Assembly: GCA_964574035.1 (NCBI GenBank)
Contig: CAZNLD010000001.1
Location: 16,220-80,219 of the forward strand
Direction of reading: 5' to 3'
Length of the DNA: 64,000 nucleotides
DNA from: Candidatus Undinarchaeota archaeon
GTDB taxonomy: Archaea; Undinarchaeota; Undinarchaeia; Undinarchaeales; JALTGF01
Part shown: positions 23,690-56,400 of the stretch, piece by piece
How the letters are laid out: every line of letters begins with the position of its first letter
How positions within the stretch are numbered: position 1 is the stretch's first letter
Position numbers and translations under genes: made by a program
Notes under the pieces: generated by a model
The model's input: the letters and a program-made list of their open reading frames with translations, nothing else
Told to the model about the DNA's origin: nothing
Database searches by the model: none

Positions 23690-23842
23690 GTTTATAAAGG
23701 GAAAAGGGTGTTCGATGTTAAGATGTTCGATAAGTGATAGTAGATTATGCATAGTCGGCAGCTGCTGGTAGGTATTTATCAATTCTTACAGTTTGTCTAA
23801 CTGTCGATTGTCTATTGTCTAATATCAATTGTCCATTATCGA
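23690..23842. repeat. Copy A of the dispersed intergenic repeat. It has an imperfect palindromic core CGGCAGCTGCTGGTAG (23756-23771) flanked by degenerate heptamer arrays (GATNNNN on the left; ATTGTCT-type on the right).
   Basis: Direct sequence comparison with the copies at 30466-30565 and 56296-56400. Confidence 0.6.
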
Positions 23843-25093
23843 TTACGTTCCTTCTTCCCAGCTTGACAGATATTTCTTCTGCTCTTTAGAAAGTTCGTCA
23901 ATTTCCATTCCCATCGTTTTCAGCTTCATTTCCGCTATTCTTTCGTCAATTTTTCTTGGTACTGAATAAACTCTGGGCTCCATATCAGAATGGTTGTTTA
24001 AAATATATTCAGCCATTAAAGATTGATTCGCAAAACTCATATCCATTACTTCGCACGGATGCCCTTCCGCAGCCGCCAAATTTACAAGTCTTCCTTCAGC
24101 CAGCAGATAAATTTTCCTGCCGTCCTTTAAAGTATATTCCTTCGTATTATTTCTGATTTCTCTTGAATTTTTGCTTAATTTTTCAAGCTCAGGGATATTA
24201 ATTTCATTATTGAAATGACCTGAATTTGCCAGAACTGCACCATCCTTCATCTTTTTAAAATGCTCTTTTGTAATTATGTTCTTATCTCCAGTTGCTGTAA
24301 CAAATATATCTCCGATTTTGGATGCTTCAGACATTTTCATTACTGTGAAGCCGTCCATTGCCGCTTCAAGTGCTTTTACAGGGTCAACCTCAGTCACAAA
24401 TACTCTGGCACCCATTCCTTTTGCTCTCATGGCAATTCCCCTGGAACACCAGCCATAGCCTGCAACAACAAAATTACTTCCTGCAATCATTACAGAAGTT
24501 GCCCTTAGAATTCCATCAATTGTGGACTGCCCAGTTCCGTATCTGTTGTCAAACAAATGCTTTGTCATTGCATCATTTACTGCAACAACCGGGAACTTCA
24601 GAACATTGTCCTTTTCCATTGCTCTAAACCGAATTACTCCGGTTGTGGTTTCTTCAGTTCCTCCCAAAACATTTGGAATTAAATCTTCCCTTTTTGAGTG
24701 TAAGGTGGCAATTAAATCTCCACCGTCGTCCATTGTTATTTTTGGTTTGCCGTCTAAAACCTTATTTACACACCAATAATATTCTTCTTCAGAAACGCCT
24801 CTCCAGGCAAAAACATTTATTCCATCTTTGGCGAGCTGCGCAGCTACATCATCCTGCGTACTTAATGGATTTGAACCGCATAAATAGACATCCGCTCCTC
24901 CTGCTTTTAGAGTTCTCATTAAAATTCCGGTTTCTTTTGTTACATGCAGGCAGGCGCCAAGTGAACTTCCTTCAAGCGGCTTCTCTTTCTTAAATCTCTT
25001 TCTTATTTCCTGAAGAACCGGCATGTGATCTTCAGCCCAGTCAAGTTTTAATTTTCCTTTTTCAGCTAAATTTTTGTCTTTTACTTTACTCAT
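23843..25093 (-). CDS. ahcY: Adenosylhomocysteinase (SAH hydrolase).
   Basis: 416 aa. NAD-binding [15 protein letters not shown]-type fold throughout. Confidence 0.85.
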
Positions 25094-25622
25094 TTTTATC
25101 GTATTTTACAAGTGAATAAACACCATAGTCGCTTATTTTTTCCCTTCCGTTTAAATCTGAAAGTTCAACTACGAATGCAATTCCCTGTACTTTACCTCCT
25201 GCTTTTTCTACTAATTTTGCTGCAGCTTCCATTGTTCCGCCAGTTGCCAAAAGGTCGTCAACCAGCAAAATATTTTGGCCTGCAACAAATGCATCTTTAT
25301 GAACTTCTAAAGCATCTACGCCGTATTCAAGCTCATATTCTTCTTTGAAAACATCAAAGGGGAGTTTTCCCGGTTTTCTGGCAATTGCAAATTCTTTTCC
25401 CATTGCATAAGCCAGAGCTGCTCCGAAAATGAATCCTCTGCTTTCTATTCCAAGAATTACATCAATATCTTTTTCTTTATAATGGTCCGCCCAGTGGTCA
25501 ATTACAAACTGAAAAGAAGCAGGGTCCTGAATTAAAGTAGTAATGTCTCTGAAAATAATTCCTTTCTTTGGAAAATCAGGTATGTTTCTGATTTTTTCTT
25601 TTAAATTTTCTATTGAGTCCAT
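25086..25622 (-). CDS. apt: Adenine phosphoribosyltransferase.
   Basis: 178 aa. PRTase motif [13 protein letters not shown]. Confidence 0.8.
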
Positions 25623-25686
25623 TCTCCAATTGATTAACTAAATACGACATCTTTTATATATTTAGGTGTTAATTAGTATTAGGAAA

Positions 25687-26478
25687 ATGGTAAAAGCAAA
25701 AATAGGTATTATTGGAGGGACTGGGGTTTATGACTCCAAAATGCTGAAAAATTCAAAAGAACTTGAGATGAAAACTCCTTATGGAGATCCTTCGGATAAA
25801 ATTACAGTCGGGAAATTTGAAGACACAGAGATTGCATTTCTTCCAAGACATGGAAAAGACCATACCATTCCACCTCACAAGATAAACGGCAGGGCAAACA
25901 TTTATGCTTTGAAAGAGCTTGGAGTTGAAAGAATTCTGGCTCCGCAGGCAGTCGGCTCCTTAAGAGAAGAAATGAAACCGGGCGATATTGTTTTTCCAGA
26001 CCAGTTTATTAACAGAACCTGGGAGAGACTTGAAACATTTTATGATGAAGATCAGGTATGCCATATATCAATGGCGGACCCTTTTTGTATTGAATTGAAA
26101 GAAAAATTAATTAAAAATTCCAAAGGTAAGGATTTTGACTTTCATGAGGGAGGAACATATGTATGCATTCAGGGACCGAGATTTTCAACTCGGGCTGAAT
26201 CAAACATGTATCGGCAGTGGGGCGCAGACATAATTGGAATGACTTTGGTTCCCGAAGTTGTTTTAGCAAGAGAAGCAGAAATCTGCTATTCTTCGATTGC
26301 AACTATTACGGATTATGACTGCTGGAAGGAAACTGCTGTTTCTTTGGATGACGTGGTTAAGACAATGAAGAAAAATCAGGAAAAGGTTAAGGACATTTTA
26401 AAAACAGTTGTTCCTGAAATACCAGAAGAGAGAGGAAACTGCGAATGCGGAAATGCGCTGAAAGGCGCACTAATCTAA
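25687..26478 (+). CDS. mtnP: 5'-methylthioadenosine / purine nucleoside phosphorylase.
   Basis: PNP/MTAP family (KIGIIGGTG...). The start is chosen at the internal Met MVKAKIGIIGG. Confidence 0.75.
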   Translation: MVKAKIGIIGGTGVYDSKMLKNSKELEMKTPYGDPSDKITVGKFEDTEIAFLPRHGKDHTIPPHKINGRANIYALKELGVERILAPQAVGSLREEMKPGDIVFPDQFINRTWERLETFYDEDQVCHISMADPFCIELKEKLIKNSKGKDFDFHEGGTYVCIQGPRFSTRAESNMYRQWGADIIGMTLVPEVVLAREAEICYSSIATITDYDCWKETAVSLDDVVKTMKKNQEKVKDILKTVVPEIPEERGNCECGNALKGALI

Positions 26479-26482
26479 CTAA

Positions 26483-27745
26483 ATGAAAGTTTATATTGAA
26501 ACATACGGCTGTTCAGCTAATTTTTCTGACTCTGAAATAATGTCAGGTCTTTTAAAAGAAGCAGGGCATGAACTTGTTGATTCTGAAAAGAAAGCAGATG
26601 CGGTAATTCTTAATTCCTGTTATGTTAAAGATCCAACAGAAAGAAAAATGAAAAAGAGGATTAAAAAATTAAAGAATAAAAAGCTGATTGTTGCCGGCTG
26701 TTTTCCTGAATCAGACAGAGCTGGAATAGAAGAAATTGCTCCTTCTGCTTCTTTAATTGGGCCAAGAAATATACAGAACATTGTTGAAGTTGTTGAATCA
26801 GATGAAAAAATAGTTGAACTTGGAGGACCGGGCGTAGAAAAATCTAAGCTTCCTAAAAAGAGAAAAAATCCAGTAGTAAATATTGTTCAGATAAATGAGG
26901 GCTGTTTATGTGAATGCTCCTTTTGCATAACAAAACATTCCAGAGGAAGACTGCAGAGCTATTCAATTGGAGCAATTATAAATGATGTAAAAAAATCGCT
27001 GGAAGAGGGATGCAAAGAAATATGGCTAACTTCTCAAGATACTGGAGCATACGGGCTGGACTTTAACAGAAATCTGGCTGAGCTCCTGAATAAAGTTTCA
27101 GAAATTAAGGGAGATTTCAAAACTAGAATTGGAATGATGAATCCAATACACGCCATAAGAATTCTACCTGAATTAATTGCTTCTTACAAAAGTGAAAAGA
27201 TATTCAAGTTTCTGCATTTGCCAATTCAATCCGGCTCTGACAGAATTTTAGATAAAATGAAAAGAGGAAACTCTGTTCAGGAATTTGAAACGATTATTGA
27301 AAAGTTCAGAGAAGCATTCCCAAAGCTTGCATTAAGTACAGATGTAATTGTTGGTTTTCCTTCTGAAACTGAATCTGATTTTCAGAAAACTCTTGACTTA
27401 ATTGAAAGGATTAAACCAGATATTGTAAATATTTCAAGATACGGCGCCAGACCAGGAACTGAAGCCGCTGAATTTGAACAAATTTCCGGCTGGAAGAAAA
27501 AAGAGAGGAGCAGGAAGTTGACTAAACTTGTTAAAAAAGTCGGGCTTGAGAAAAATAAAGAATGGCTGGACTGGACCGGAGAAATTTTGATAGATAAAAA
27601 AGGAAAACCCGGAAGCTGGATTGGAAGAAATTTTGCATACAAACCAATTGTTGTTAGGAGTAAAGAAAATCTTCTTGGAAAGAGGCTGAAAATTAAGATA
27701 ATAAAAGCTAAACCAACTTATTTGATTTCAGAAATCCAGGACTAA
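26483..27745 (+). CDS. mtaB: Radical-SAM methylthiotransferase (MiaB/MtaB family; archaeal tRNA t6A37 MTTase-like).
   Basis: 420 aa. N-terminal MTTase domain (YIETYGCSAN). Radical-SAM Cys cluster CxxxCxxC (CECSFC). TRAM-like C-terminus. Confidence 0.75.
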   Translation: MKVYIETYGCSANFSDSEIMSGLLKEAGHELVDSEKKADAVILNSCYVKDPTERKMKKRIKKLKNKKLIVAGCFPESDRAGIEEIAPSASLIGPRNIQNIVEVVESDEKIVELGGPGVEKSKLPKKRKNPVVNIVQINEGCLCECSFCITKHSRGRLQSYSIGAIINDVKKSLEEGCKEIWLTSQDTGAYGLDFNRNLAELLNKVSEIKGDFKTRIGMMNPIHAIRILPELIASYKSEKIFKFLHLPIQSGSDRILDKMKRGNSVQEFETIIEKFREAFPKLALSTDVIVGFPSETESDFQKTLDLIERIKPDIVNISRYGARPGTEAAEFEQISGWKKKERSRKLTKLVKKVGLEKNKEWLDWTGEILIDKKGKPGSWIGRNFAYKPIVVRSKENLLGKRLKIKIIKAKPTYLISEIQD

Positions 27746-27746
27746 A

Positions 27747-29342
27747 CTACTTCTTTTTTACTTTCTTAACCAGCTTCTTAACTTCTTTTTTCCTGATCTT
27801 TTCAAGCTCTTTCTTTTCTTTCTTGGTAAGCTTGCCTTCTTCCTCAAGCTTTTCAAGCTTTTCAAATGCCGATTCTGCTTCCTGTTTAGGTTTCTCTTTC
27901 TTTTTCCATTCAGATTTTGTAAGCTCCGGATGAGGATAACTTGGGACAGGATATCTCTTCAGATAGTCTTGAAGAACGTACAAGAGAGCATACCCGGGGC
28001 CCATGAATATCAAAACCAGGAGACTTCCTAAAATTATTGAAAGACCCCATGTTGCTGTTATAAAGGAGTAGATAGTTCCTCCTGTAATTAGCAGAAGCAG
28101 AGCCCAGATGTATGAAGGCCTTAAAACTAAATGATAATTCCACCAGAGTGAAGCAATTCCATATGTTAACTTTCTCATTGTTTTTACATATTTGTCTCTT
28201 CCAAGAAGTCTGATAAGAGATTTTTCCATATAGAAATAAATTATGTCTCTCTTGAAGCGGTATAAATCGTAAGCATTGAAAATATCTCCGTAAACGGCGC
28301 TCATTTTGAATCCGCTCCATTCAGTATCCTCCCACGCATTCTTTACAATGGGTCTATAGAAGTAATGGAACTTCCACCAAGGATAATAAATTAATTCTCT
28401 TCCAGTAATTACAATATCTTCCGGTTTGCATTTTTCAACGTAGGATATCCACTGGATTGCTGCAAGTTTTGCTTCATGTTTTTCCATGGCAGGCCTGTAA
28501 ACAACAAAATTTACTCCTGCAGGCAATTTTGGTTTCTTTATTTTTACTCTTGGAACCATGTGTGTTGATTCCACTGTGTGAATTGCTTCAACTCCAAAAT
28601 AAGCTTCTTTTAATGGTTTAGTGGTGTCCATTTCAGGTTTTATGTCTGTCCAGGAGTCAACCTGACCTGTCAAGGCATTTAAACCGAAATAGCCCTGCTT
28701 CATTTCTGTTTCTCCTTTTTTGGGAGTTACATAATATGAAATTTTCCAGTAAGGTTCATATGCAAGCTCTTTGTTTAAAAACCAAACAGCATCATAATTT
28801 ATGAAAAGCATCTTCTCGAACCACCACTTCAGCTTCCACCTTACTTTTTCGTAATCCCAGTAAACAGGATAAGCAGGAGAGTTGAACCACCATTTGTCCT
28901 TTGTCATGGCTTTTCCGAGGAGTTCCTGTACTTTGCCGGGAGTCATGATATTTACATTTGCAGGAACACCTGCTTCATGAGCCTCCGGTGTGGCTCCGGT
29001 AACTGTAAGTAAAAGTGCAGAGTGGGCGTTAGACTGCTCCCTGATTTGTCCCAAATGTTCAACATCAGAAGGCGTTACTGGTTCGTTGCCTCTTTTATAT
29101 CTTACAATAATTCTTCCGAAAGGTCTTTCAATATCCTTCTTTTCGGCTAAAACATCAACTTTATAAACAATTCCTTCCTCTTCCTTCTTGGGCATTTTTG
29201 CAAGCTCATCAAGTTTGCCAGTTTCCCTTTCAAGAGGAGCAGTGGTTATCTTTCCCCCGACAATCCCTACATTCCTCCTGGTTTCGTACCCGTACATGTT
29301 CAGGAGCTCTTCGGTGAAGTCGAGAAGTGTATTGATATCCAT
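27747..29342 (-). CDS. Membrane protein with an N-terminal Mrr-like restriction-endonuclease-fold domain, a W/Y-rich central region, C-terminal TM helices and a Lys-rich coiled tail.
   Basis: N-terminus FTEELLNMYGYE...GIVYKVDVLA...RIIVRYKRGNEPVTPSDVEHL...LLLTVTGATPEA matches the Mrr_cat pattern. Two to three TM segments near residues 410-470. KK/EE-rich tail. Confidence 0.5.
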   Translation of the reverse strand: MDINTLLDFTEELLNMYGYETRRNVGIVGGKITTAPLERETGKLDELAKMPKKEEEGIVYKVDVLAEKKDIERPFGRIIVRYKRGNEPVTPSDVEHLGQIREQSNAHSALLLTVTGATPEAHEAGVPANVNIMTPGKVQELLGKAMTKDKWWFNSPAYPVYWDYEKVRWKLKWWFEKMLFINYDAVWFLNKELAYEPYWKISYYVTPKKGETEMKQGYFGLNALTGQVDSWTDIKPEMDTTKPLKEAYFGVEAIHTVESTHMVPRVKIKKPKLPAGVNFVVYRPAMEKHEAKLAAIQWISYVEKCKPEDIVITGRELIYYPWWKFHYFYRPIVKNAWEDTEWSGFKMSAVYGDIFNAYDLYRFKRDIIYFYMEKSLIRLLGRDKYVKTMRKLTYGIASLWWNYHLVLRPSYIWALLLLITGGTIYSFITATWGLSIILGSLLVLIFMGPGYALLYVLQDYLKRYPVPSYPHPELTKSEWKKKEKPKQEAESAFEKLEKLEEEGKLTKKEKKELEKIRKKEVKKLVKKVKKK

Positions 29343-29388
29343 TTACAGTATCTTTAAGTATGTTCTTGATATTTATATTTTAGTAAAG

Positions 29389-30465
29389 ATGAAAAAGGTA
29401 GAGGAAAAAGAAATAAAACTGAAAATTCCGGAAAACCACAGGAAGCCGGAAAAATCAGAAGTTTTTTATAATCCAGAGATGGAAATGAATCGGTCTCTTT
29501 CTGTCGCTTCTGCTAAAGTTTATTTTGAGAATAAGAAAATTAAAATTCTGGATCCTTTTTCTGCAACCGGAATCAGGGCCATTAGGTATGCAAAAGAGCT
29601 GGAAGGAACAGTTCTTGCTTCTGATATAAGTCAAAAGGCAGTAGATTTGACTGAAAAAAATGCATATCTGAATGGTGTTGAAATTGAAACAGAAAGAGAA
29701 AAAGCAAATGTAATTCTTAACAGAGCTTATTTCGATTTGATCGATATTGATCCTTTTGGAAGTCCGGCTCCTTTTTTGCAGGCGGCTTCCAAAGCGCTTA
29801 AAAATAATGGGATGCTTGGAATTACTGCAACAGATGCAACTGCTTTATGCGGAGTTTATCCAAAAGTTTGTCTTAGGAACTATGGGGCTGTTCCTTTAAG
29901 AACTGAATACTGCCACGAAATCGCAATGAGAATTTTAATTGGATATACTGTGAAAGAAGCGGCTGTTTATGAAAAAGCAGTTGAACCACTGCTGGTTTTT
30001 AATGACAAACATTATTTCAGACTTCAGCTGAAAATAAGAAAAGGAGCAAAAAGAGCAAATAACTGTCTTGATAAAATTGGTAATATCTACCACTGTTTTA
30101 ACTGCGGAGCAAGGAAAATGGAAAAAGGCAGATTTGTAAAAAAAGAAAAATGTAAATGCGGGGAGAAATTTGAAATTGGCGGACCGGTCTGGACCGGAAA
30201 ATTATTCGATCCTAAGTTTTGTAAGAAGATTTTATTTGAAGTTGAAGGAAATAAAGAACTTGAAAAGCAGACTAGATTGATGATTGAAGAAGCAGGGCAT
30301 GAGCCTCTTTTTTATGATGTTCATGAAGTTTTTAGAGGAAGTTCAATTCCAAAACTTGAAAAAATTATTGAAAAACTGAAAGAAAAAGGATTTAAAGCAA
30401 GCAGAACTCACTTTTCGCCGGTCGGAATTAGAACGGATGCAGAAATATCAGATATTAGATGCTAG
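29389..30465 (+). CDS. trm1: tRNA (guanine26-N2)-dimethyltransferase Trm1.
   Basis: TRM1 family. DPFGSPAPFL motif and a Cys-cluster insertion. The start is the internal ATG (MKKVEEK); the upstream part of the ORF overlaps the divergent gene. Confidence 0.8.
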   Translation: MKKVEEKEIKLKIPENHRKPEKSEVFYNPEMEMNRSLSVASAKVYFENKKIKILDPFSATGIRAIRYAKELEGTVLASDISQKAVDLTEKNAYLNGVEIETEREKANVILNRAYFDLIDIDPFGSPAPFLQAASKALKNNGMLGITATDATALCGVYPKVCLRNYGAVPLRTEYCHEIAMRILIGYTVKEAAVYEKAVEPLLVFNDKHYFRLQLKIRKGAKRANNCLDKIGNIYHCFNCGARKMEKGRFVKKEKCKCGEKFEIGGPVWTGKLFDPKFCKKILFEVEGNKELEKQTRLMIEEAGHEPLFYDVHEVFRGSSIPKLEKIIEKLKEKGFKASRTHFSPVGIRTDAEISDIRC

Positions 30466-30565
30466 ATAATCGATATAAATGGACAATCGATAATAGATGA
30501 TAGAACATCGATAATCGACAGTTAGACAAGTTGTAGTGTTAATAAACATCTACCAGCAGCTGCCA
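30466..30565. repeat. Copy B of the dispersed repeat, in inverted orientation relative to copy A. About 90 bp are alignable, including the core CTACCAGCAGCTGCC (30550-30564), with AATCGAT-type heptamers on the left.
   Basis: The reverse complement of 23760-23850 aligns with 30470-30565 (…atcgacagttagacaaRYtgtaR…ataaaYaYctaccagcagctgcc). Confidence 0.6.
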
Positions 30566-30593
30566 GCTCAACCATTTTCCCTTGGCCAATACT

Positions 30594-30722
30594 ACCAGTT
30601 CAAATAATTCAAATAATCCGTACCACCCGTCCAAATTATCCGGCGAATTCACACTGCCAGTTCAAATTACTTGAATAGCTCAAAACACCAGCTCGAATTA
30701 CTCAGCGAGCTCAAACTACCTA
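30594..30722. repeat. Degenerate direct repeats (units CAGTTCAAATAATT / CAGTTCAAATTACT / CAGCTCGAATTACT / GAGCTCAAACTACC), including two tandem 31-bp copies at about 30658-30720.
   Basis: Read directly from the sequence, in the convergent intergenic region between trm1 and tfb. Confidence 0.5.
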
Positions 30723-30725
30723 CCT

Positions 30726-31885: not shown

Positions 31886-31975
31886 GAGATTTATATATGA
31901 GTAAAAAAAGTGATATATAAATGTTTTGGTTTTATGAATTCTTTTCCATATAGTAAATAAATAAGCTTTTTAAAT

Positions 31976-35590: not shown

Positions 35591-36049
35591 TTAGCAGCTG
35601 CCGGTAGTGCATGTGAATGAAAAGGTCTTCTCTGCTGTCGATTCGTCAGATGTAATTTTTATTGTCTTTGTTGAGGTTACATAGTTAGTGCAGTCAACTG
35701 TTGCATTAAAGTTAGTTATAGTACCTGGATCTAAACTTGAATTAGACATACCAGGCTGTATTGCATCATCAATATATATCTGCAAGTTCTTTGCTTTCTC
35801 AGTTCCTGCATTTCTTACACTGATTGTCAAATTTGAACTTCCGGCATTACAACCTAAATTATATCCTTCCACCCTTAATTGGACTTTTAAGCTCCCTAAA
35901 AGTCGTTCTGTAGTGTTTTCAGTGCTCGTTTCAATTGATGCCTGGGTCCTCTGAAGCCAGGTATAAGCTAAACCGGCAATAGAGATAGTCATCATTAAAA
36001 GGAGTATTACAGAAATTACTGGAGTTATACCTTTGTTGTTAAATAACAT
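35591..36049 (-). CDS. Archaeal type IV pilin-like protein with a class III signal peptide (DUF1628-type N-terminus).
   Basis: N-terminus MLFNNKGITPVISVILLLMMTISIAGLAYTWL (a KG-cleavage-type prepilin signal). Cys-rich C-terminus (FTCTTGSC). Confidence 0.65.
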   Translation of the reverse strand: MLFNNKGITPVISVILLLMMTISIAGLAYTWLQRTQASIETSTENTTERLLGSLKVQLRVEGYNLGCNAGSSNLTISVRNAGTEKAKNLQIYIDDAIQPGMSNSSLDPGTITNFNATVDCTNYVTSTKTIKITSDESTAEKTFSFTCTTGSC

Positions 36050-36050
36050 T

Positions 36051-36536
36051 TTAAGAGCATGAGCCTGAAGAACAGGTTATTTCAAATAATGTCTCTGAAG
36101 TTACCTGGTCGGAAGTTACTTTAATTGTTCTCGTCCTGTTTATCCAATCGGTGCAGGTTCTATTTCCTAAGTCAAATGAAGTAGTATTTCCTGGTCCTAA
36201 AGAAGTGTAATTCGATACATTAATTAGCGCATTATCTGCATAAAGCCGGAGATTCTTAACTTTTTTAGTTCCGCTGTTCCGTATATAGAAGGTCATTTCA
36301 ACATCTGAAGTTCCGCTATAACATTTTGCTTTATAGCCGTCAATACTCAGCTGAGCTTTGAAACCAGTCATTAGCTCTTCAGTAGTGTTTTCAGTACTTG
36401 ACTGAATAGATGCTTCCATCCTTTGAAGCCAGGTATAAGCAAGTCCTGCAATAGCGATCGTCATCATTAAAAGAAGAACAACTGAAATAATAGGAGTTAT
36501 TCCTTTTCTGTTCCTCAAAAAACTTCTTCTGCTCAT
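36051..36536 (-). CDS. Archaeal type IV pilin-like protein, a paralogue of the adjacent gene.
   Basis: N-terminus ...RNRKGITPIISVVLLLMMTIAIAGLAYTWL. C-terminus EITCSSGSCS. Confidence 0.65.
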   Translation of the reverse strand: MSRRSFLRNRKGITPIISVVLLLMMTIAIAGLAYTWLQRMEASIQSSTENTTEELMTGFKAQLSIDGYKAKCYSGTSDVEMTFYIRNSGTKKVKNLRLYADNALINVSNYTSLGPGNTTSFDLGNRTCTDWINRTRTIKVTSDQVTSETLFEITCSSGSCS

Positions 36537-37419: not shown

Positions 37420-37570
37420 TTAAAGTTTGCTTAAAGGATGGACGTTAGATATTAGACAATAGACAATGGAGATGTGGCTAGTAGCAGTTAATGAGCACTA
37501 CTGACTTTGATGTCTATCATCCATTATCGATTGCCTATTGTCGATGCTCTATCGTCGATTGTCTATACAA
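37420..37570. repeat. Variant copy C of the dispersed repeat. AGACAAT heptamers lie on the left and an eight-unit TGTCNAT array on the right (37511-37568). The centre has a hairpin-like AGTAGcagttaatgagcaCTACT in place of the CAGCTG core.
   Basis: The heptamers share the consensus of copies A and B (TGTCTAT CATCCAT TATCGAT TGCCTAT TGTCGAT GCTCTAT CGTCGAT TGTCTAT). Confidence 0.55.
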
Positions 37571-44897: not shown

Positions 44898-44899
44898 AA

Positions 44900-46151: not shown

Positions 46152-46221
46152 AAAGTAATTATTGTTAAATTACTATAAAATATTTAGGAAAGAAATATGA
46201 GTAGTTGAAAACAAAAAAAAC

Positions 46222-48184: not shown

Positions 48185-48230
48185 TCTCTTAAATTACTAT
48201 GAGAGAGAAGTTAAAATATTTATCTACTAA

Positions 48231-49310: not shown

Positions 49311-49383
49311 ATTAATTCTTACTTAAATAAGTTTTTACAGTATCAAAATAAATATAAACTCAAGAATACACTTAAAAAGTACA

Positions 49384-50187: not shown

Positions 50188-50190
50188 ACA

Positions 50191-50523
50191 ATGTATAAAC
50201 TGGCTTTTTTTATAGGCATAAGTGCAACAACAGCAGTTCTGTCTTATCTTATTTTAGGGAAAGAAAAAGCATCCGAAATGAAAAAAGCAATAAAAATCAA
50301 TATTCCGATCTCAATAGCTAAACCCTCATCGAAAAAACCTAAAATTAGCTCAGGATTTGAAATACAAAAACCTGAAGCACCTAACTATGGAACCAGTACT
50401 CCTGTAAGCAGTCTCTGCGGGCAGTGTGGGAAACAGACAACTATGCCTTTTAGATGCAGAAGATGCGGCGGGCTGTTCTGTTCCGAACACAGGCTTCCAG
50501 AAGCCCACAACCGTGGACAATAA
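50191..50523 (+). CDS. Membrane-anchored AN1-type zinc-finger protein.
   Basis: N-terminal TM. C-terminal CGQCGKQTTMPFRCRRCGGLFCSEHRLPEAHN fits the AN1 pattern C-x2-C-x9-C-x2-C-x4-C-x2-H-x5-H. Confidence 0.5.
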   Translation: MYKLAFFIGISATTAVLSYLILGKEKASEMKKAIKINIPISIAKPSSKKPKISSGFEIQKPEAPNYGTSTPVSSLCGQCGKQTTMPFRCRRCGGLFCSEHRLPEAHNRGQ

Positions 50524-50603
50524 ATTTGTTTTAAAGGAACCACTACATTTATATACTACTTCTTACCACTATATAGTAGTGAACTTGGGAGAGATGGTTT
50601 AAA

Positions 50604-51455
50604 ATGGTCGTATGGATGCTCTTTGCAGTGCCGGTAATTATGGTTTTCGGAGCCATGGGACTGGCTATTAAATATCCCCATAATTTAATTATAGGTAAAA
50701 TTATTTTTGAAATAAAACAGTACGAAAAAGCAGTTGTTTACCGTTTAGGTAAATATCACAGAACACTAGAACCCGGCTGGCGTATTGTTATTCCAATTAT
50801 TGAAAGTTTTGTCAACTATGATTTAAGAACGGAGGCACTTGACGTTGCTGCTCAAGAAGTTATTACAAAGGACGGAATTAAGCTTTTAATTGATGCAATT
50901 ATTTACCTGAGGGTTGAAGATGTTGTAAAAGCGGAGCTTGAAGTTGAAGAAGACTATAGAAAAGCAATTGAAGCCCACGTAAAAGGTCGTATCAGAAATA
51001 TTGCAGGTACGGTTGATATTAATGAACTTTATGCTAATATTGGAGATATTAACAAGCAGTTAGAAAAAGAAACACAGGAGCTTGTAAGATCATGGGGTGT
51101 TGATATTGTTAACATGGAACTTCAGACAATTAAACCGCCTGAAGATGTTGTTGATGCTCTGCAGGCCAGAGAAATTGCAGAGAGATATAAAGAAGCTGCA
51201 AAGGAAGAAGCTCAGCAGACAAAAATTAGAATTGATGCTATTGAAGCTGCTGCAGGAAAACTTTCTGAACCTGCATTAAACTATCTTTATCTGCAGACCC
51301 TGAAAGATGTTGCCGACGGACAGTCAAGCAAGATAATCTTCCCGCTTGAATTCAGCAAGCTTGCTGAAAAGATTGGAAAAGGAGTAGGCGGAGGACTGGA
51401 TAAAGAAGGCCTCGAAAGTCTCGCAAAAAAGTATCTGGGTTCTGCAGCAAACTAA
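50604..51455 (+). CDS. SPFH / band-7 (stomatin/prohibitin-like) membrane protein.
   Basis: N-terminal TM then the band-7 core (YEKAVVYRLGKYHRTLEPGWRIVIPIIE). Confidence 0.75.
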   Translation: MVVWMLFAVPVIMVFGAMGLAIKYPHNLIIGKIIFEIKQYEKAVVYRLGKYHRTLEPGWRIVIPIIESFVNYDLRTEALDVAAQEVITKDGIKLLIDAIIYLRVEDVVKAELEVEEDYRKAIEAHVKGRIRNIAGTVDINELYANIGDINKQLEKETQELVRSWGVDIVNMELQTIKPPEDVVDALQAREIAERYKEAAKEEAQQTKIRIDAIEAAAGKLSEPALNYLYLQTLKDVADGQSSKIIFPLEFSKLAEKIGKGVGGGLDKEGLESLAKKYLGSAAN

Positions 51456-51463
51456 AATAAGAA

Positions 51464-51697
51464 GTGACAATCATGAGAAGTGAAGAAATTTTAAGAAGTA
51501 AAACAGATGTTGGAAAAATTTCTGAAAGAACTAAGGTTCTTCGGGTAGACTGCGGTCTGGAAAAGAAAGATGCAGTTGACATTATGAAAAGATGTAGAAC
51601 CCTGAAAGAGGTTGTATTCGAATATAATGCATTTAATCATACCGAAGAGGAAGCCCTGGAATACCTGAATAGATGGGTTTATCTTGAAAGAGAATAG
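51464..51697 (+). CDS. Small hypothetical protein (77 aa), a paralogue of the N-terminal module of the next gene.
   Basis: Shared module: L-[RT]-V-[DN]-C-x-L...A..I...CR.L..V.F...AF..T..E..EYL. Confidence 0.35.
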   Translation: MTIMRSEEILRSKTDVGKISERTKVLRVDCGLEKKDAVDIMKRCRTLKEVVFEYNAFNHTEEEALEYLNRWVYLERE

Positions 51698-51738
51698 ACT
51701 GAGTAAAATATATACTAATAAACCTACTATTTTTCTTT

Positions 51739-52155
51739 ATGGAAGAACTTCATGAATATACTCTGGAACATAAAGAAGATGTATGGAAACTTCCATCTGA
51801 AACAAGAATTCTTACTGTAAACTGCAGATTAAACCTTCATTTGGCTAAAAAAATAATTGAAAACTGCAGAGAGCTGGAATTTGTAAAATTTTCACCGCAC
51901 GCCTTTGAAATAACCGACAAGGAAACAGTTGAGTATTTAGAAGACCTTATTTTTGTTCAGATTGTTGGAAAGAAAATAAAACAAGATATTGATGAAAAAA
52001 CAAGGAAAAGAATAAGGAACCTCTGGAATTTAGGAGATCACAGTACAGAACATTTATCCGAGAAATTTAATATATCAAAAGATGTAGTTTATCAGATAGT
52101 TCATGAGAAAGCTCCGGAGCACGCAAAGGAGGAGAAGCATAAACATGGCAGATAA
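51739..52155 (+). CDS. Hypothetical protein (138 aa) with the same N-terminal module plus a C-terminal HTH-like segment.
   Basis: Paralogy to 51464..51697. The C-terminus LGDHSTEHLSEKFNISKDVVYQIVHEK is HTH-like. Confidence 0.35.
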   Translation: MEELHEYTLEHKEDVWKLPSETRILTVNCRLNLHLAKKIIENCRELEFVKFSPHAFEITDKETVEYLEDLIFVQIVGKKIKQDIDEKTRKRIRNLWNLGDHSTEHLSEKFNISKDVVYQIVHEKAPEHAKEEKHKHGR

Positions 52156-52570
52156 ATATCCAAAACTGGCAGTAGACATTTTAGTTGAAGAAAACGGAAA
52201 AATCCTTTTAATTAAGAGAAATTTTGAACCTTTTAAAGGAAAGTGGGCTCTGCCCGGCGGATTTGTCGAACTCGGAGAAACTGTTGAACAGGCTGCAGTC
52301 AGAGAAGCTGAAGAAGAAACAGGACTTGAGGTCGAACTTGAAGGCATATTAGGAGTTTATTCTGATCCGGAAAGAGATCCAAGGGGGCACATAATTTCAA
52401 TAGTATTTTTTGGCAGTAAAAAGGATGGAAAAGAGAAGGCAGGAAAGGAAATTCAGGACATCAAATGGACAAACTTTAACAAAACTGAAGGTATTGATTT
52501 TGCTTTTGATCACGCAACTATTGTTGGGGACTATAAAATTATTAAAATGGACATGGATATGCAGAGGTAA
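52145..52570 (+). CDS. NUDIX hydrolase.
   Basis: Nudix box GGFVELGETVEQAAVREAEEETGL. The start is chosen at the internal Met MADKYP. Confidence 0.75.
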   Translation: MADKYPKLAVDILVEENGKILLIKRNFEPFKGKWALPGGFVELGETVEQAAVREAEEETGLEVELEGILGVYSDPERDPRGHIISIVFFGSKKDGKEKAGKEIQDIKWTNFNKTEGIDFAFDHATIVGDYKIIKMDMDMQR

Positions 52571-52606
52571 AAACATAAATAAGCCCGGTGCAATTATTCT
52601 TTAAAA

Positions 52607-54340
52607 ATGAAACTATTACTGCAACACGTTGACTATGTCAATTTCAAAGTAACGAAAAAGACAAAGTTAGCCCGTAAACTGTCAGAAAAAGAAAAAAAAG
52701 GAGAGATGAAAGACTGTCTTTTTGTTAGATTTGCTTCCGAAAAAGAAGATGAAGCCGATGAAGACAAAATTGCAGAAAAAACAGTAAAAAACATACTTGA
52801 TGTTGCATCTGAAATTAAAGTTAAAAAAGTAGTTCTCTATCCTTATGTTCATTTGCTTTCAGGTTCAGATCCATCTGGAGTTAAAACAGCACTTCATATT
52901 CATAAAAAGATGAAGACCCTTCTTGAAAAGGAAGGATTTGACGTTCTTAATGCTCCTTTCGGCTGGTACAAACAATTTGAAATGAAATGTAAAGGCCACC
53001 CGATGAGCGAGCTGAGCAGAGTTGTTAGCTTAGAAGGTAAGAAAAAGAAAAAAGAGGAAAAAAAAGCTCCGGAGAAGCCAAAAGACGAAGAAGATGAAGG
53101 AGAAGTTAAACTTGGCAAACAAACTGTTCATTTGGACAGGGAAAAACTAAGCGAGAACGATCATAGAATTATCGGACAAAACCTGGACTTATATTCATTC
53201 CAAAAAGTAGGACCAGGCATGGTTTTCTTCCATTCAAAAGGATGGACAATTAGAAACCAAATGATTAAATTTATGAGAGAAAAACTTAATGAAGCCGGCT
53301 ATGAGGAAATAAATACGCCGATTATTCTTGATAAAAAACTCTGGAAAGTTAGCGGGCACTGGGATCATTACAAAGACCATATGTTCTTTACAAAAGTAGA
53401 TGACAGGGATTTCGCAGTTAAACCAATGAACTGTCCAGGAGGAATTCTGGTTTACAAAAATGAGAGCAGAAGTTATAATGACCTTCCAATGAGAATGTCA
53501 GAATTCGGACTGGTAAGCAGAGATGAATTAAGCGGAGTCCTTTCAGGTTTGTTTAGATTGAGGACATTTACGCAGGATGATGCCCATATTTACTGCACTG
53601 AAAAACAAATGGAAAAAGAGCTTGAAGATTTAATTGAACTTATTGACGATATTTACAAAACATTTGGATTTAAGTACAAGGTTGAGCTTTCAACAAGACC
53701 AGAAGATGCAATGGGCGATAAAAAAATCTGGGACCAAGCCGAAAAAACTCTGAAAAAAGCTCTTGAAAAAAAGAAAATTAAATATAAAATCAATGAAGGA
53801 GACGGAGCATTTTACGGCTCCAAAATTGACTACCATGTTACTGATTCATTAGGAAGAGACTGGCAGTGCGGAACGGTTCAGCTTGATTTCTTAATGCCGG
53901 AAAGATTTGAACTTACATATATTGATTCAAACGGAGAGGAAAAAAGACCTGTAATGATACATAGAGCAATATACGGAAGCCTTGAAAGGTTTTTAGGGGT
54001 TTTAGTTGAGCACTATAAAGGAAAATTCCCGCTCTGGCTTTCTCCTGAACAAGTTACTGTACTAACAATGAATGAGGACAGCATTGACTACGCTAAAAAA
54101 GTAGTTGAAAGATTGAAAAATGAAGGATTCAGAGTTACCCATAATTATGACGCTGAAACGATTGAAAGTAAGATAAGGGATGCCCAGCTTCAGCATGTTA
54201 ATTATACGATTGTTGTAGGAGATAAGGAAATTGAAAGTAAAACCATTGCTGTCAGAAACAGAAAAGGCAAGGTCAAATACAAGGTCAAATTAGATGACTT
54301 TGTAAATAAAATGAAAAAGGAAATTAAAGAAAGGAAATAA
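52607..54340 (+). CDS. thrS: Threonine--tRNA ligase, archaeal type with the N-terminal DTD-like editing domain.
   Basis: 577 aa. Class II motifs (FRLRTFTQDDAHIY). Archaeal N-terminal editing domain. A K/E-rich insertion (KKKKKEEKKAPEKPKDEEDEGE). Confidence 0.85.
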   Translation: MKLLLQHVDYVNFKVTKKTKLARKLSEKEKKGEMKDCLFVRFASEKEDEADEDKIAEKTVKNILDVASEIKVKKVVLYPYVHLLSGSDPSGVKTALHIHKKMKTLLEKEGFDVLNAPFGWYKQFEMKCKGHPMSELSRVVSLEGKKKKKEEKKAPEKPKDEEDEGEVKLGKQTVHLDREKLSENDHRIIGQNLDLYSFQKVGPGMVFFHSKGWTIRNQMIKFMREKLNEAGYEEINTPIILDKKLWKVSGHWDHYKDHMFFTKVDDRDFAVKPMNCPGGILVYKNESRSYNDLPMRMSEFGLVSRDELSGVLSGLFRLRTFTQDDAHIYCTEKQMEKELEDLIELIDDIYKTFGFKYKVELSTRPEDAMGDKKIWDQAEKTLKKALEKKKIKYKINEGDGAFYGSKIDYHVTDSLGRDWQCGTVQLDFLMPERFELTYIDSNGEEKRPVMIHRAIYGSLERFLGVLVEHYKGKFPLWLSPEQVTVLTMNEDSIDYAKKVVERLKNEGFRVTHNYDAETIESKIRDAQLQHVNYTIVVGDKEIESKTIAVRNRKGKVKYKVKLDDFVNKMKKEIKERK

Positions 54341-54691
54341 TCAAAATTTAATATGTTTTTTTAACTTTTTCTTATCATGCTTCCTTAAACCGCCGGTGAA
54401 ATTTTTAGGTATATGCCTTAATTCATGAATTAAGACTTCGTCCTGCTTTTTCTTGTTCAGATTGTCAAATCTTTCAGACAGGACCTCAATGACGTATCTT
54501 GGCTCCATGAAAAGGGCCTGCTGCCATATTTTAGGAAAGGACCAAATCCTTGCCAGAATGCTTTCAGACTTAGAACCCTCCGACCTGAAGCAGTAAATTT
54601 TGCTTGAATCAACGTTTGAAAAACCGTTGGAATCGACTAATTCAATAATTCTTTTTTTGATGTCGGGAGCTCTGAAATATTTGATTGCCAT
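54341..54691 (-). CDS. Small HExxH zinc-metallopeptidase-like protein (SprT/WLM-like).
   Basis: 116 aa. HELRH motif near the C-terminus. Confidence 0.4.
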   Translation of the reverse strand: MAIKYFRAPDIKKRIIELVDSNGFSNVDSSKIYCFRSEGSKSESILARIWSFPKIWQQALFMEPRYVIEVLSERFDNLNKKKQDEVLIHELRHIPKNFTGGLRKHDKKKLKKHIKF

Positions 54692-54788
54692 AGTTTAATT
54701 AAGGACTAGATTCTTTTTATCACTTGTGAAACGCAAAAGCTGCATAAATAGATTCTGCTTTTGTGAGCATTTATGGATAAAGGGTGAA

Positions 54789-55538
54789 ATGCAAATGAAA
54801 GTTCTATACTGGAAAGACGACAAAGCTGGAAAGAATATAGCTGAAAATCTGGTGGAAATTGGACTGGAGCATCTTTTAATTGAGTCAGAAAAATCTCTCT
54901 TATATTCTGAAGAGCTGGATATTGAAACTGATCTGTTTGTAGTTGCTTCAACGCATAGAAGTAAAACAAATAAACCCAGCCTTACGGTCCATCCAACAGG
55001 AAACTGGGGCTCTGCAGATGTCGGAGGAAACGAACATGAACTTTCATATACTAGTCCGGAAGCTCTGGCTGTCGGCTTGAGGGCAATTAATAAAAGAGAA
55101 ACAGAAGGGTTTGATGTAAGTATGGAGGCGACTCATCACGGCCCTACCGGCTGGAAAACTCCCCTGATATTTATTGAGATTGGAAGTAGGGAAAAAGAAT
55201 GGAAAAATAAAGAAGCAGGAAGAATTATTGCTGAGGCAATTTCTGAAATAAATGATTCTAAACAGACGTTTGAAAACTATGTCGGCTTCGGCGGGATACA
55301 CTACTGCCCTTACTTTACTAAAAGAGTTCTTGAAAATGAAGGGATTGCAATAGGACATGTTGCTCCTAAATATGCCTCAGAAGATTTGGATAAACAAATA
55401 ATCAAAGAGGCATTTGAAAAGAGCAATGCTGAAAAAGCTCTCTTTGACTGGAAAGGATTGAGAAGTAAGGAAAGAAACAAAATTTTAAATATTCTGGAAG
55501 AGTTAGGAATAGATTACAAGAGGGCGAGAGATATATGA
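54789..55538 (+). CDS. dtdA: D-aminoacyl-tRNA deacylase, archaeal type (DtdA/DTD2).
   Basis: ASTHRSKTNKPSLTVHPTGNWG, MEATHHGPT, FIEIGSREKEW and DWKGLRS match the DTD2 family. The start is at the internal ATG pair (MQMKVLY). Confidence 0.75.
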   Translation: MQMKVLYWKDDKAGKNIAENLVEIGLEHLLIESEKSLLYSEELDIETDLFVVASTHRSKTNKPSLTVHPTGNWGSADVGGNEHELSYTSPEALAVGLRAINKRETEGFDVSMEATHHGPTGWKTPLIFIEIGSREKEWKNKEAGRIIAEAISEINDSKQTFENYVGFGGIHYCPYFTKRVLENEGIAIGHVAPKYASEDLDKQIIKEAFEKSNAEKALFDWKGLRSKERNKILNILEELGIDYKRARDI

Positions 55539-56167
55539 GGAAACTATTTTGGAAAGATCCGTATAAAAAAGAATGCAGAGCAAAAGTTAAAAAAATTGAC
55601 GGCAGGAAAGTTGTATTAAATCAGAGTATTTTCTTTGCTTTTTCCGGAGGGCAGACATCCGATAAAGGAACAATTGGAGGAATCGAAGTTGAAAAAGCAG
55701 AAAAGGACAAGGACATAGTTTATACTTTGAAAGAAGAACCAACTTTTTCAGAAGGAGAGGAAGTTGAAGTAAAAATTGACTGGGATTTCAGATACAAATT
55801 AATGAAACTTCATTCCGCTGCCCATATTGTTTATGAAATATTCAAAGAAACAGCTGGCAGGAAAAAGATTATTGGCTCAAATATTTCAGGTAAAAAAGGA
55901 AGAATTGATTTTGAAATGGATGAAAACCTGAATGAATACCTGCCTCAAATTCAGAAAAAAACGAATGAATTAATTCAGAAAAATTTGAAGATTGAAACTT
56001 ATGAAGATGAAATTGAAAAAGGAAAAAGATGGTGGGAAATTCCTGGGAAGTGGAAAATGCCCTGCGGAGGAACTCATGTTAAAAAAACATCTGAAATAGG
56101 AGAAATTGAATTAAAAAGAAAGAATATTGGAGCAGGGAAGGAAAGAGTTGAAATTTACTTAAAATAG
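55535..56167 (+). CDS. alaX: Alanyl-tRNA editing protein AlaX (AlaX-M type).
   Basis: 210 aa. N2-like FFAFSGGQTSDKG. HxxxH (HSAAHIVYE). CGGTHV zinc-binding motif. Confidence 0.8.
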   Translation: MRKLFWKDPYKKECRAKVKKIDGRKVVLNQSIFFAFSGGQTSDKGTIGGIEVEKAEKDKDIVYTLKEEPTFSEGEEVEVKIDWDFRYKLMKLHSAAHIVYEIFKETAGRKKIIGSNISGKKGRIDFEMDENLNEYLPQIQKKTNELIQKNLKIETYEDEIEKGKRWWEIPGKWKMPCGGTHVKKTSEIGEIELKRKNIGAGKERVEIYLK

Positions 56168-56222
56168 TTCAGCGAAAGTGTATTTAATAAGCTTGCAGAT
56201 AAAATTAAAGATACATAAATTT

Positions 56223-56295
56223 AGCCCCGTAGTGTAGCGGTCAAGCATAGCAGGCCCTGGACCTGCTGACAGCAGTTCGAATCTGCTCGGGGCTA
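56223..56295 (+). tRNA. tRNA, most likely tRNA-Gln (anticodon CUG). It has an A1-U72 pair and discriminator A. The anticodon loop CCCTGGA has C at position 33.
   Basis: Acceptor AGCCCCG/CGGGGCT. Anticodon stem GCAGG/CCTGC. T-arm AGCAG-TTCGAAT-CTGCT. The numbering fits the canonical 73 nt. Confidence 0.5.
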
Positions 56296-56400
56296 CTAAA
56301 AAATGGTAGATGGTAAATAGTAGATCGTAAATGGTAAAGATCACCCAGCAGCTGCCGGCTACGCATAGAATCATTAACTATTAACTATAAACGATTAACC
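56296..56400. repeat. Copy D of the dispersed repeat. The core is CCCAGCAGCTGCCGGCTACGCATAG (56345-56369), flanked by RATNGTA heptamers (56303-56340) and YATTAAC heptamers (56362-56399).
   Basis: The core matches copy A (reverse complement) at 20 of 22 positions (CCAGCAGCTGCCGaCTAtGCAT versus CCAGCAGCTGCCGgCTAcGCAT). Confidence 0.6.

What the first reader, a model, noticed from the sequence alone, without database searches (positions are those of the whole stretch)
23690..56400. Dispersed intergenic repeat family with an imperfect palindromic core CCAGCAGCTGCCGRCTAYGCAT
A shared core of about 22-25 bp appears in three intergenic regions. The copies are at 23756-23780 (seen in reverse complement), 30550-30564 and 56345-56369. 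The cores of copies A and D agree at 20 of 22 positions. The reverse complement of copy A and copy B share a further 70-90 bp to the left (…atcgacagttagacaaRYtgtaR…ataaaYaYctacc). All copies sit in AT-rich spacers and are flanked by tandem heptamers. A fourth region at 37420-37570 has the same heptamer flanks but a different centre. The core contains CAGCTG inside a 14-bp near-palindrome, which is the shape of a site for a dimeric DNA-binding protein or a recombinase. Positions relative to genes are inconsistent (upstream of tbp, between convergent trm1 and tfb, between a tRNA and a HAD gene). That argues against a simple promoter motif and for a mobile, recombinogenic or architectural element. 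I know of no described element that matches.
Basis: seen in the sequence. Interest (0 to 1): 0.7.

Follow-up and report, generated by a model that had tools for sequence, protein, structure and literature searches.

The report
Small intergenic repeats in an Undinarchaeales genome
A tiny-genome archaeon (Undinarchaeales, DPANN) carries a young, species-specific family of non-coding repeats, built from 7-base tandem units around a 22-base GC-rich centre; they fill spacers right after genes and tRNAs and are missing from the same spots in its sister species, so they look like small mobile or selfish DNA and not like a regulatory site.

Summary
The 22-mer CCAGCAGCTGCCGRCTAYGCAT occurs at 23747-23768(-) and 56345-56366(+). 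Its first 16 bases recur at 30553-30568(+). Shuffles predict none. Copies A and B align over 99 nt at 78% identity. Heptamer periodicity is specific to lag 7, at six spacers.

The window comes from a Candidatus Undinarchaeales MAG. In a syntenic sister genome, elements A and B are absent (14 bp and 6 bp in their place). Element D is reduced to a 33-bp array. Locus C holds a different member of the family.

A fourth, diverged core copy lies about 0.5 kb left of the window, beside tRNA-Arg. The arms are degenerate T-N-G-A-Y-A-A heptamer arrays. They occur seven times in about 76 kb of this species and never in about 101 kb from relatives.

The centre varies: the core in A, B, D and G, another hairpin in C. 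All four cores point the same way as the gene or tRNA that ends just upstream.

No known RNA family, viral match or transposase was found.

Best reading: a lineage-specific, non-autonomous MITE/REP-like repeat family whose arms resemble bacterial intergenic heptamer repeats. I rate it a new variant of a known kind, of moderate interest. The mechanism is inferred.

The parts
23704..23841 (-). Element A. A 138-bp block between the AdoHcyase stop and the TBP promoter. The sister genome L137 has 14 unrelated bp here.
   Evidence: blastn gap; alignment; identical in Logan contigs
23747..23768 (-). Core copy A: CCAGCAGCTGCCGACTATGCAT
23802..23843 (-). Type-I heptamer arm of A (TCGATAA TGGACAA TTGATAT TAGACAA TAGACAA TCGACAG), starting at the AdoHcyase stop codon
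   Evidence: TRF period 7; arm HMM E=6e-11; register
23704..23746 (-). Degenerate reverse-complement-type array of A (ATCTACT ATCACTT ATCGAAC ...), just upstream of the TBP promoter
   Evidence: (period 7 at 23709-23731)
30458..30725 (+). Element B. A 268-bp block between convergent trm1 and tfb. In the sister genome the two genes overlap and 6 bp stand in its place. The block replaces the last ~8 codons of trm1.
30479..30513 (+). Type-I heptamer arm of B. A further out-of-register array lies at 30440-30478.
30553..30568 (+). Core copy B: CCAGCAGCTGCCAGCT. The 5' half is conserved and the 3' tail has diverged.
30570..30725 (+). Second, unrelated repeat family (units like GYTCRAAWTA / CCAGCTCAAA) forming the right part of B. 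A related copy lies at L235 11780-11993.
   Evidence: 73% mean column identity
37416..37570 (-). Element C. Two inverted type-I arms (37438-37472 + and 37507-37545 -) surround a different centre that contains the hairpin at 37478-37503. It fills the thermosome-stop to next-promoter spacer. It is the only element that folds better than shuffles (z = -2.7).
   Evidence: (I5); the sister has a different family member here
56297..56400 (+). Element D, between tRNA-Gln and the HAD start codon. It has a G-type arm TGGTARA x5 (56301-56338), then the core, then a C-type arm ATTAACY x4 (56373-56399). The sister genome has only a 33-bp C-type array.
56345..56366 (+). Core copy D: CCAGCAGCTGCCGGCTACGCAT
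13306..13344 (-). Solo heptamer array. On the minus strand it reads TAGTGAA TGGTTTA TGGTAGA TAGTTAA, directly 3' of the intron-containing tRNA at 13348-13469(-).
   Evidence: D9
18354..18433 (+). Solo heptamer array (CCACCCA / CTACTGC type), between the orphan ORF 17351-18337 and the rpoK promoter. The sister has unrelated sequence here.

Best explanation
These are copies of a young, lineage-specific family of small non-coding repeats of the MITE/REP kind, in a Candidatus Undinarchaeales (DPANN) genome.

Anatomy. Each element has arms made of degenerate tandem heptamers: T-N-G-A-Y-A-A, with a sister type T-N-G-T-A-R-A. The arm on the far side is the reverse-complement type. The arms flank a short GC-rich centre. 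The centre is exchangeable. It is the 22-24-nt core CCAGCAGCTGCCGRCTAYGCAT(A) in A, B, D and G, and another hairpin in C.

Location. Elements occupy the interval between a stop codon or tRNA 3' end and the next promoter.

Shown:
- The family is real.
- It is multi-copy in this species.
- It is absent or different at the same sites in the sister species.
- It can overwrite a gene's 3' end (trm1).

Inferred:
- Copies spread between spacers either by a trans-acting enzyme encoded elsewhere or by recombination/gene conversion between heptamer arrays.
- Arms grow and turn over by replication slippage, as proposed for bacterial heptamer repeats.
- Any effect on transcript 3' ends or promoter insulation is secondary.
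For: 1. Non-chance repetition. Core. A/B align over 99 nt at 78%, about 20 sd above shuffles. The arm HMM finds 7 copies at E of 1e-6 or better at five loci of this species (A, B, C x2, G x2, H). It finds none in L137, L138, L230, L231, L236 or L237. The core HMM finds 4 loci in this species and none in relatives.

2. Insertion polymorphism against a syntenic sister genome (GCA_046483005.1; AdoHcyase 95% and thermosome 96% identical, genes about 80-86% nt identical). A is 138 bp against 14 bp. B is 268 bp against 6 bp, and trm1 and tfb overlap in the sister. D has about 70 extra bp. C holds a different element that shares a 19-mer with the window's D arm.

3. Modularity. The same core sits in three arm contexts (A/B, G, D). 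The same arms surround another centre (C).

4. All sorts of neighbours (tbp, tfb, HAD, argS, tRNAs) and no requirement in the sister genome. This argues against a gene-specific regulatory role.

5. No known RNA family.

6. Literature on the same kind in bacteria: heterogeneous intergenic heptamer arrays that differ between close relatives and sometimes occur as inverted pairs (PMC4692102; PMC4679880), and REPINs as inverted doublets that behave as non-autonomous mobile DNA (PMC3116915).
Against: - No target-site duplication or sharp termini could be defined. The arms fade outward.
- No transposase, RAYT or integrase is encoded in the roughly 76 kb seen (gene tables).
- Only C forms a hairpin better than shuffles. 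A, B and D do not.
- Within arms, variation is concentrated at positions 2, 5 and 6, while T1, G3, A4 and A7 are kept. This hints at sequence-specific constraint and therefore possibly function.
- The core orientation is 4/4 co-directional with the upstream gene. A purely selfish symmetric element need not show this.
- The whole genome could not be scanned.
Confidence: 0.55

Rival explanations
1. The 22-24-nt core is itself a very small mobile unit, like the cyanobacterial small dispersed repeats. It inserts into the dyad centre of pre-existing inverted heptamer arrays. The arms are only its preferred target.
For: The same core (20/22 between A and D; 17/22 for G against the D core) sits between three different arm types. 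The sister genome has an arm pair joined directly, without the core (CCATCTGCC at the junction). The core is absent from all relatives' loci. Its length matches the 21-27 nt reported for SDRs (from memory of Elhai 2008, which is not held). SDR5 is cited as inserting at HIP1 in PMC5861425.
Against: At D the window differs from the sister by arm plus core together, not by the core alone. A and B share about 85 nt of arm and spacer 5' of the core in addition to its first 12 nt, so the unit copied there was larger. There are only four copies.
Confidence: 0.2
2. Functional DNA site. A dimeric DNA-binding protein (regulator, chromatin or segregation factor) binds the near-palindrome, and the 7-bp arrays act as cooperative flanking sites.
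For: The core contains the near-palindrome CCAGCAGCTGCCGG. Heptamer positions 1, 3, 4 and 7 are conserved while 2, 5 and 6 vary freely. The elements show dyad organisation.
Against: The palindrome is broken in G (CAGCTT), and the tail is lost in B. The sister species expresses the same genes with 6-14-bp spacers and no element. The neighbours are functionally unrelated. C has the arms but another centre.
Confidence: 0.12
3. RNA-level element: a 3'-UTR or terminator module, or a small RNA made from the spacer.
For: All four cores are co-directional with, and 42-88 nt downstream of, a gene or tRNA 3' end. In distant relatives the thermosome gene is followed at the same place by a classical hairpin plus T-tract. 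The terminator scan flags the core hairpin, though on the opposite strand.
Against: No U-tract follows the core on the sense strand. The flagged hairpins lie antisense for A and D. Folding energies of A, B and D are no better than shuffles. There is no Rfam match. Orientation at 4/4 has a chance probability of only about 1/8 to 1/16.
Confidence: 0.1
4. Scars or att-like sites left by integrative elements that target tRNA and gene 3' ends (a core-type site flanked by arm-type repeats, as in lambda attP).
For: Four tRNAs are followed by arrays. A 66-nt direct repeat comprising an arm plus the last 17 nt of tRNA-Arg brackets a ~1.4-kb segment just left of the window.
Against: No integrase is present. 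A and B are inverted relative to each other and bracket genes that are fully syntenic in the sister genome. Cores do not occur as direct pairs around islands.
Confidence: 0.05

Closest known systems
Bacterial intergenic heptamer tandem repeats: STRR of Calothrix/Nostoc, (GGGANTN)n of Xanthomonas, GGGGAYT of Nostoc, TAACTGA of Beggiatoaceae/cyanobacteria/Bacteroidetes, (GATAGRA)n of Chloroflexus
   Same: Head-to-tail 7-nt units restricted to spacers. Units are heterogeneous at fixed positions. There is strong length and sequence turnover between close relatives, and relatives often have short repeat-free spacers. Some occur as inverted pairs or abut start codons (PMC4692102; PMC4679880; PMC6749651).
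   Different: These are in an archaeon; my literature searches found no archaeal report. The unit sequences differ. Here the arrays are short (4-8 units), are shared between loci as 35-50-nt homologous 'arms', and enclose a dispersed non-heptamer core.
REP / REPIN elements mobilised by RAYT (IS200/IS605-like Y1 transposases)
   Same: Short extragenic GC-rich imperfect palindrome placed after genes. Inverted doublets with a short spacer (C and G look like this). Non-autonomous, with no target duplication expected. On the opposite strand the core reads [G/A]TAG + CCGGCAGCTGCTGG, which recalls the GTAG-plus-hairpin layout of REPs (from memory). REPIN concept: PMC3116915.
   Different: The core occurs as singlets. 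Its stem is only about 5 bp. The inverted parts are AT-rich heptamer arrays, not REPs. No RAYT or TnpA was seen in 76 kb. RAYT systems are described in bacteria.
MITEs (miniature inverted-repeat transposable elements)
   Same: 100-270 bp, non-coding, multi-copy, inverted arms (C, G), and insertion polymorphism between sister genomes.
   Different: No defined terminal inverted repeat ends. No target-site duplication. No parent IS with matching ends identified. The centres are exchangeable.
   Same: A 21-27-nt unit, partly palindromic, found nested inside other repeats and absent from orthologous positions. The mechanism is unknown.
   Different: No sequence relation. A different domain of life. 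Only four copies are known here, and independent movement of the core is not demonstrated.

Membership tests
Heptamer simple-sequence repeat arrays (STRR-like) | Tandem head-to-tail units of 7 nt | tested here: met
   TRF period 7/14/21. The lag-7 signal is specific and far above shuffles. Register tables.
Heptamer simple-sequence repeat arrays (STRR-like) | Intergenic location and rapid turnover between close relatives | tested here: met
   All six window arrays are in spacers. They are absent or different in the sister genome.
MITE | Terminal inverted repeats with defined ends | tested here: inconclusive
   Inverted type-I arms occur in C and G. The outer ends are ragged, and A, B and D have unequal arms.
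MITE | Target-site duplication | tested here: not met
   No duplicated flank at A or B when compared with the empty sites in L137.
MITE | Autonomous parent element or transposase with the same ends | not testable with these tools
   None in the ~76 kb available.
REP/REPIN | A 20-40-nt imperfect palindrome with a conserved tetranucleotide (GTAG) at one end | tested here: inconclusive
   The opposite strand reads GTAG (D), ATAG (A, G) or TGAG (B), followed by a YYGGMAGCTGYTRR near-palindrome. The stem is only about 5 bp and does not appear in the MFE folds.
REP/REPIN | Inverted REP doublets forming a hairpin | tested here: not met
   The core is single in all four elements.
REP/REPIN | RAYT gene in the genome flanked by the REPs | not testable with these tools
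   None seen in the sequence at hand.
Tyrosine-recombinase att site | Direct repeats bracketing an island that encodes an integrase | tested here: not met
   A and B are inverted and bracket syntenic housekeeping genes. There is no integrase.
Intrinsic terminator | GC-rich hairpin followed by a T/U tract on the sense strand | tested here: not met
   The scan hits lie on the antisense strand for A and D. No T-tract follows the core on the sense strand.
Known structured RNA (Rfam) | Match to a covariance model | tested here: not met
   Only tRNAs match.

The most novel reading that the evidence does not exclude
The 22-24-nt core is an autonomous-looking 'nano-element' of an archaeon. It copies itself into the symmetry centre of inverted heptamer arrays by a structure-directed route (hairpin or cruciform, or single-stranded DNA at the fork), without any canonical transposase nearby. 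That would make it an archaeal counterpart of the unexplained cyanobacterial small dispersed repeats. The heptamer arms would be maintained by a sequence-specific factor, since T1, G3, A4 and A7 are conserved.
Probability: 0.15. Interest if true: 0.7.

Novelty: new variant of a known kind. Interest (0 to 1): 0.42.

Why it matters
DPANN archaea such as Undinarchaeota have very small, tightly packed genomes and are thought to carry little repetitive or selfish DNA. Here about 1.5% of a 76-kb stretch is recently gained non-coding repeat. It has expanded spacers from 6-14 bp to 138-268 bp and rewritten the end of a housekeeping gene (trm1). All of this happened since the split from a sister species.

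If the family proves genome-wide, it offers three things:
- A marker of very recent genome dynamics in an uncultivated symbiont lineage.
- An archaeal instance of the still unexplained over-representation of 7-nt repeats known from bacteria.
- A tractable case (empty and filled sites, exchangeable centres) for asking how transposase-less mini-elements spread.

It also has a practical side. Such repeats may break short-read assemblies of these MAGs: one Logan contig ends exactly at the edge of element A, although the cause of that break was not tested.

Tried and rejected
- Public scans with ANCNMCCAGCAGCTGCCRRCT, which matches all three window copies. The 40 genome hits and 93 metagenome hits are bacterial, GC-rich or coding, and lack heptamer flanks. 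Their number fits my rough estimate of what chance would give. A, B, D and the sister's element fold no better than shuffles. Only C is significant. The 'long hairpin' and structured-RNA ideas were therefore dropped as general explanations.\n- Restriction-site avoidance. CAGCTG is not avoided in the window (18 observed, 6.9 expected).\n- A fourth core-like site at 35591-35612 turned out to be the conserved 3' coding end of a pilin-like gene, also present in the sister genome. It is not a family member.\n- The orphan ORF 17351-18337 as a possible mobilising enzyme. It has no Pfam, NCBIfam, PHROG or PDB hit and no homologue among 1.84 billion representatives. Nothing links it to the repeats.\n- Look-ups with the two ORFs cut by the window ends failed.\n- The key SDR paper (Elhai 2008) is not held. 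Several literature searches were unproductive.\n- More distant relatives (L138, L236, L237) were fetched to test generality. They show no type-I arms or cores. L138 has one weak heptamer array.

Full report
**Observation**

The 22-mer CCAGCAGCTGCCGRCTAYGCAT is present exactly twice, at 23747-23768 on the minus strand and 56345-56366 on the plus strand. The 12-mer CCAGCAGCTGCC is present exactly three times, the third at 30553-30564. Dinucleotide shuffles give 0.00 and 0.10 matches. An unbiased repeat search returns these regions as its strongest inverted pairs: 58 nt at 78% for A/B, 39 nt at 79% for A/D and 33 nt at 88% for A/C. A local alignment of A (reverse complement) with B spans 99 nt at 78% identity. 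Its score is 51, against 11.7 +/- 2.0 for shuffles.

Tandem Repeats Finder reports period-7/14/21 arrays on both sides of the cores. A lag-k self-similarity scan is specific for k = 7. At the strict threshold there are eight segments at lag 7 and none at lags 4, 5 or 8-11. At the looser threshold there are 11 segments, against a mean of 1 in shuffles. The arrays lie in six spacers: 13306-13344, 18354-18433, 23796-23847, 30440-30524, 37431-37566 and 56294-56413. Only the coordinates of copy A were about 10 nt off.

**Source and comparison genomes**

The AdoHcyase, thermosome and NAD(P)H-hydrate epimerase of the window are 95%, 96% and 78% identical to proteins of a MAG labelled Candidatus Undinarchaeales archaeon (GCA_046483005.1). 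Exact copies occur only in one NCBI contig of 119 kb and in Logan assemblies of SRR7048218, SRR7048220 and SRR7048227. Those independent assemblies reproduce elements A and D base for base, so the elements are not assembly artefacts.

Three loci of the sister genome (L137, L230, L231) are collinear with window 12.6-39.3 kb and about 54.7-62.8 kb, at roughly 80-86% nucleotide identity in genes.

**Empty and different sites in the sister genome**

- Element A. Between the AdoHcyase stop and the TBP promoter, the sister has 14 bp where the window has 138 bp.
- Element B. In the sister, trm1 and tfb overlap tail to tail, and 6 bp correspond to 268 bp of the window. The insertion replaces the last ~8 codons of trm1.
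- Element D. After tRNA-Gln the sister has only a 33-bp array (CTAACTA ATTACCA TAAACCA ATAACCA). The window has in addition a G-rich arm and the core.
- Element C. After the thermosome gene both genomes fill the interval from stop codon to next promoter exactly, but with different members. The window has two inverted type-I arms around a private hairpin. The sister has a D-like pair of arms that shares the 19-mer TGGTAGATGGTAAATAGTA with window element D and has no core.
- A more distant relative (L138, AdoHcyase 80%) has one weak array.
- Two still more distant ones (L236 and L237, GC 48-49%) have none, and carry a classical hairpin plus T-tract after the thermosome gene.

**Anatomy**

When the spacers are written in register, the arrays fall into a 'G-type' and its reverse complement.
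- The type-I unit is T-N-G-A-Y-A-A. Information content at positions 1-7 is 1.69, 0.19, 1.49, 1.49, 0.39, 0.49 and 0.98 bits over 44 units.
- The D-type unit is T-N-G-T-W-N-A.

Elements therefore have dyad organisation: arm, GC-rich centre, inverted arm.

An HMM of the type-I arm finds seven copies (E from 6e-11 to 1e-6) at five loci of this species. It finds none in about 101 kb from relatives.

Fetching the contig to the left of the window (L235) revealed two more loci.
- Element G (L235 about 5455-5568) has two inverted type-I arms around TTAACAGCTTCCGGCTATGCAT. This is a fourth, diverged core (5 mismatches). It lies directly 3' of tRNA-Arg(tcg).
- Element H is a solo arm copied together with the last 17 nt of that tRNA.

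A core HMM finds only A, B, D and G. The core thus sits in three arm contexts: type I plus a 35-nt spacer in A and B, type I directly in G, and D-type in D. The same arms surround another centre in C.

In all four cases the core's strand is that of the gene or tRNA ending 42-88 nt upstream (AdoHcyase, trm1, tRNA-Gln, tRNA-Arg). In A, D and G the next gene's start lies 34-128 nt downstream.

**What it is not**

- No Rfam family matches, even at permissive thresholds.
- As single strands, A, B and D fold no better than shuffles. Only C does (z = -2.7).
- The terminator-like hits at the core are on the antisense strand for A and D, and no T-tract follows on the sense strand.
- The palindrome is not the conserved feature. 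G has CAGCTT and keeps the tail. B keeps the palindrome and loses the tail.
- A and B, although inverted, bracket fully syntenic housekeeping genes, so they are not att sites of an island or the ends of an invertible segment.
- No transposase, integrase or HUH enzyme is encoded in the roughly 76 kb available (gene tables).
- Scans of the genome, metagenome and viral collections with patterns matching all copies returned only hits that lack the heptamer flanks, in about the number I estimated for chance. The family is therefore confined, as far as can be seen, to this species.

**Interpretation**

Sequence identity between distant spacers (78-97% over 35-99 nt) cannot arise by local slippage alone. 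Together with the empty sites in the sister species, it requires copying between loci. The most economical reading is a young, non-autonomous, MITE/REP-like repeat family. Its arms are heptamer arrays that additionally evolve by slippage. Spread would occur either through an enzyme encoded elsewhere in the genome or through recombination/gene conversion between arrays. The exchangeable centres and the sister's core-less arm pair leave open that the core moves on its own.

The position-specific conservation within heptamers and the 4/4 orientation bias are not explained by a purely selfish model. They keep the functional rivals alive: a protein-binding array, or a 3'-end element.

**Relation to known systems**

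Intergenic heptamer arrays with fixed and free positions, rapid turnover between close relatives and occasional inverted pairs are documented in Xanthomonas and Nostoc (PMC4692102). They are also documented in Beggiatoaceae, cyanobacteria and Bacteroidetes (PMC4679880) and in Chloroflexus (PMC6749651). A polymerase-slippage explanation has been proposed for them. The two literature searches I ran on archaeal heptamer repeats turned up no archaeal example.

REPINs provide the precedent for inverted doublets acting as transposase-dependent mini-elements (PMC3116915). Small dispersed repeats of Nostocaceae are the precedent for 21-27-nt units nested in other repeats (cited; details from memory, because the paper is not held).

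The present elements fail the testable defining features of MITEs (target duplication) and REPINs (core doublets). I therefore class them as a new variant of the general kind, not as a member of either family.

**Verdict**

The 'recombinase or dimeric-protein site' option is not supported. Interest is moderate: an unexpected burst of non-coding repeat gain in a streamlined DPANN genome and an archaeal parallel to bacterial heptamer repeats. It is known from only about 76 kb of one uncultivated species, and the mechanism is only inferred.

Noticed in passing
window 17281-18351 (ORF 17351-18337): A 328-aa ORF lies between eIF-1A and rpoK. It is absent from the sister genome. It has no family or PDB hit and no homologue among 1.84 billion representative proteins. 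Its 1060-bp segment is bracketed by an 11-bp direct repeat ATTAAGGTTTT (17281 and 18341), which is single-copy in the sister. This looks like an insertion with a target duplication.
   Followed up: partly
L235 5525-5590 and 6974-7036 (about 0.5-2 kb left of the window): A 66-nt direct repeat (2 mismatches) made of a type-I arm plus the last 17 nt of tRNA-Arg(tcg). It brackets about 1.4 kb that holds two unannotated ORFs (193 and 200 aa). It could be a tandem duplication or the remnant of a tRNA-targeted integration.
   Followed up: partly
window 30570-30725; L235 11780-11993: A second, unrelated intergenic repeat family built from ~9-18-nt units (TTTGAGCTGG / TAATTTGAAC). The two loci show 73% mean column identity. 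One copy forms the right half of element B.
   Followed up: partly
window 13348-13469 (-) and 1355-1448 (+): Intron-containing tRNA genes. The first is found only by Rfam and is missed by ARAGORN. Like tRNA-Gln and tRNA-Arg(tcg), it is followed directly by a G-type heptamer array.
   Followed up: partly
window 35591-35612: TTAGCAGCTGCCGGTAGTGCAT resembles the core (16/22). It is, however, the conserved 3' coding end (…TCTTGSC*) of a type-IV-pilin-like gene and is also present in the sister genome. It is probably a coincidence.
   Followed up: yes
window 35591-36536: Two tandem paralogous pilin-like genes (152 and 161 aa) with class-III signal peptides. They share a 135-nt stretch at 79% identity (D1).
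   Followed up: no
L002 position 1 (= window ~23703): A Logan contig from SRR7048227 ends exactly at the promoter-side edge of element A. This is consistent with short-read assemblies breaking at these repeats, or with a variant that lacks the element.
   Followed up: no
L236 11594-11692; L237 11651-11855: In more distant Undinarchaeota-like genomes (GC 48-49%) the thermosome gene is followed by a GC-rich hairpin plus T-tract. This is the position occupied by heptamer elements in the window species and its sister.
   Followed up: no
window 54341-54691 (-): A 116-aa protein matches the 'putative phage metallopeptidase' family (PF18894, E = 1e-25). It sits among tRNA-synthetase-related genes.
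   Followed up: no
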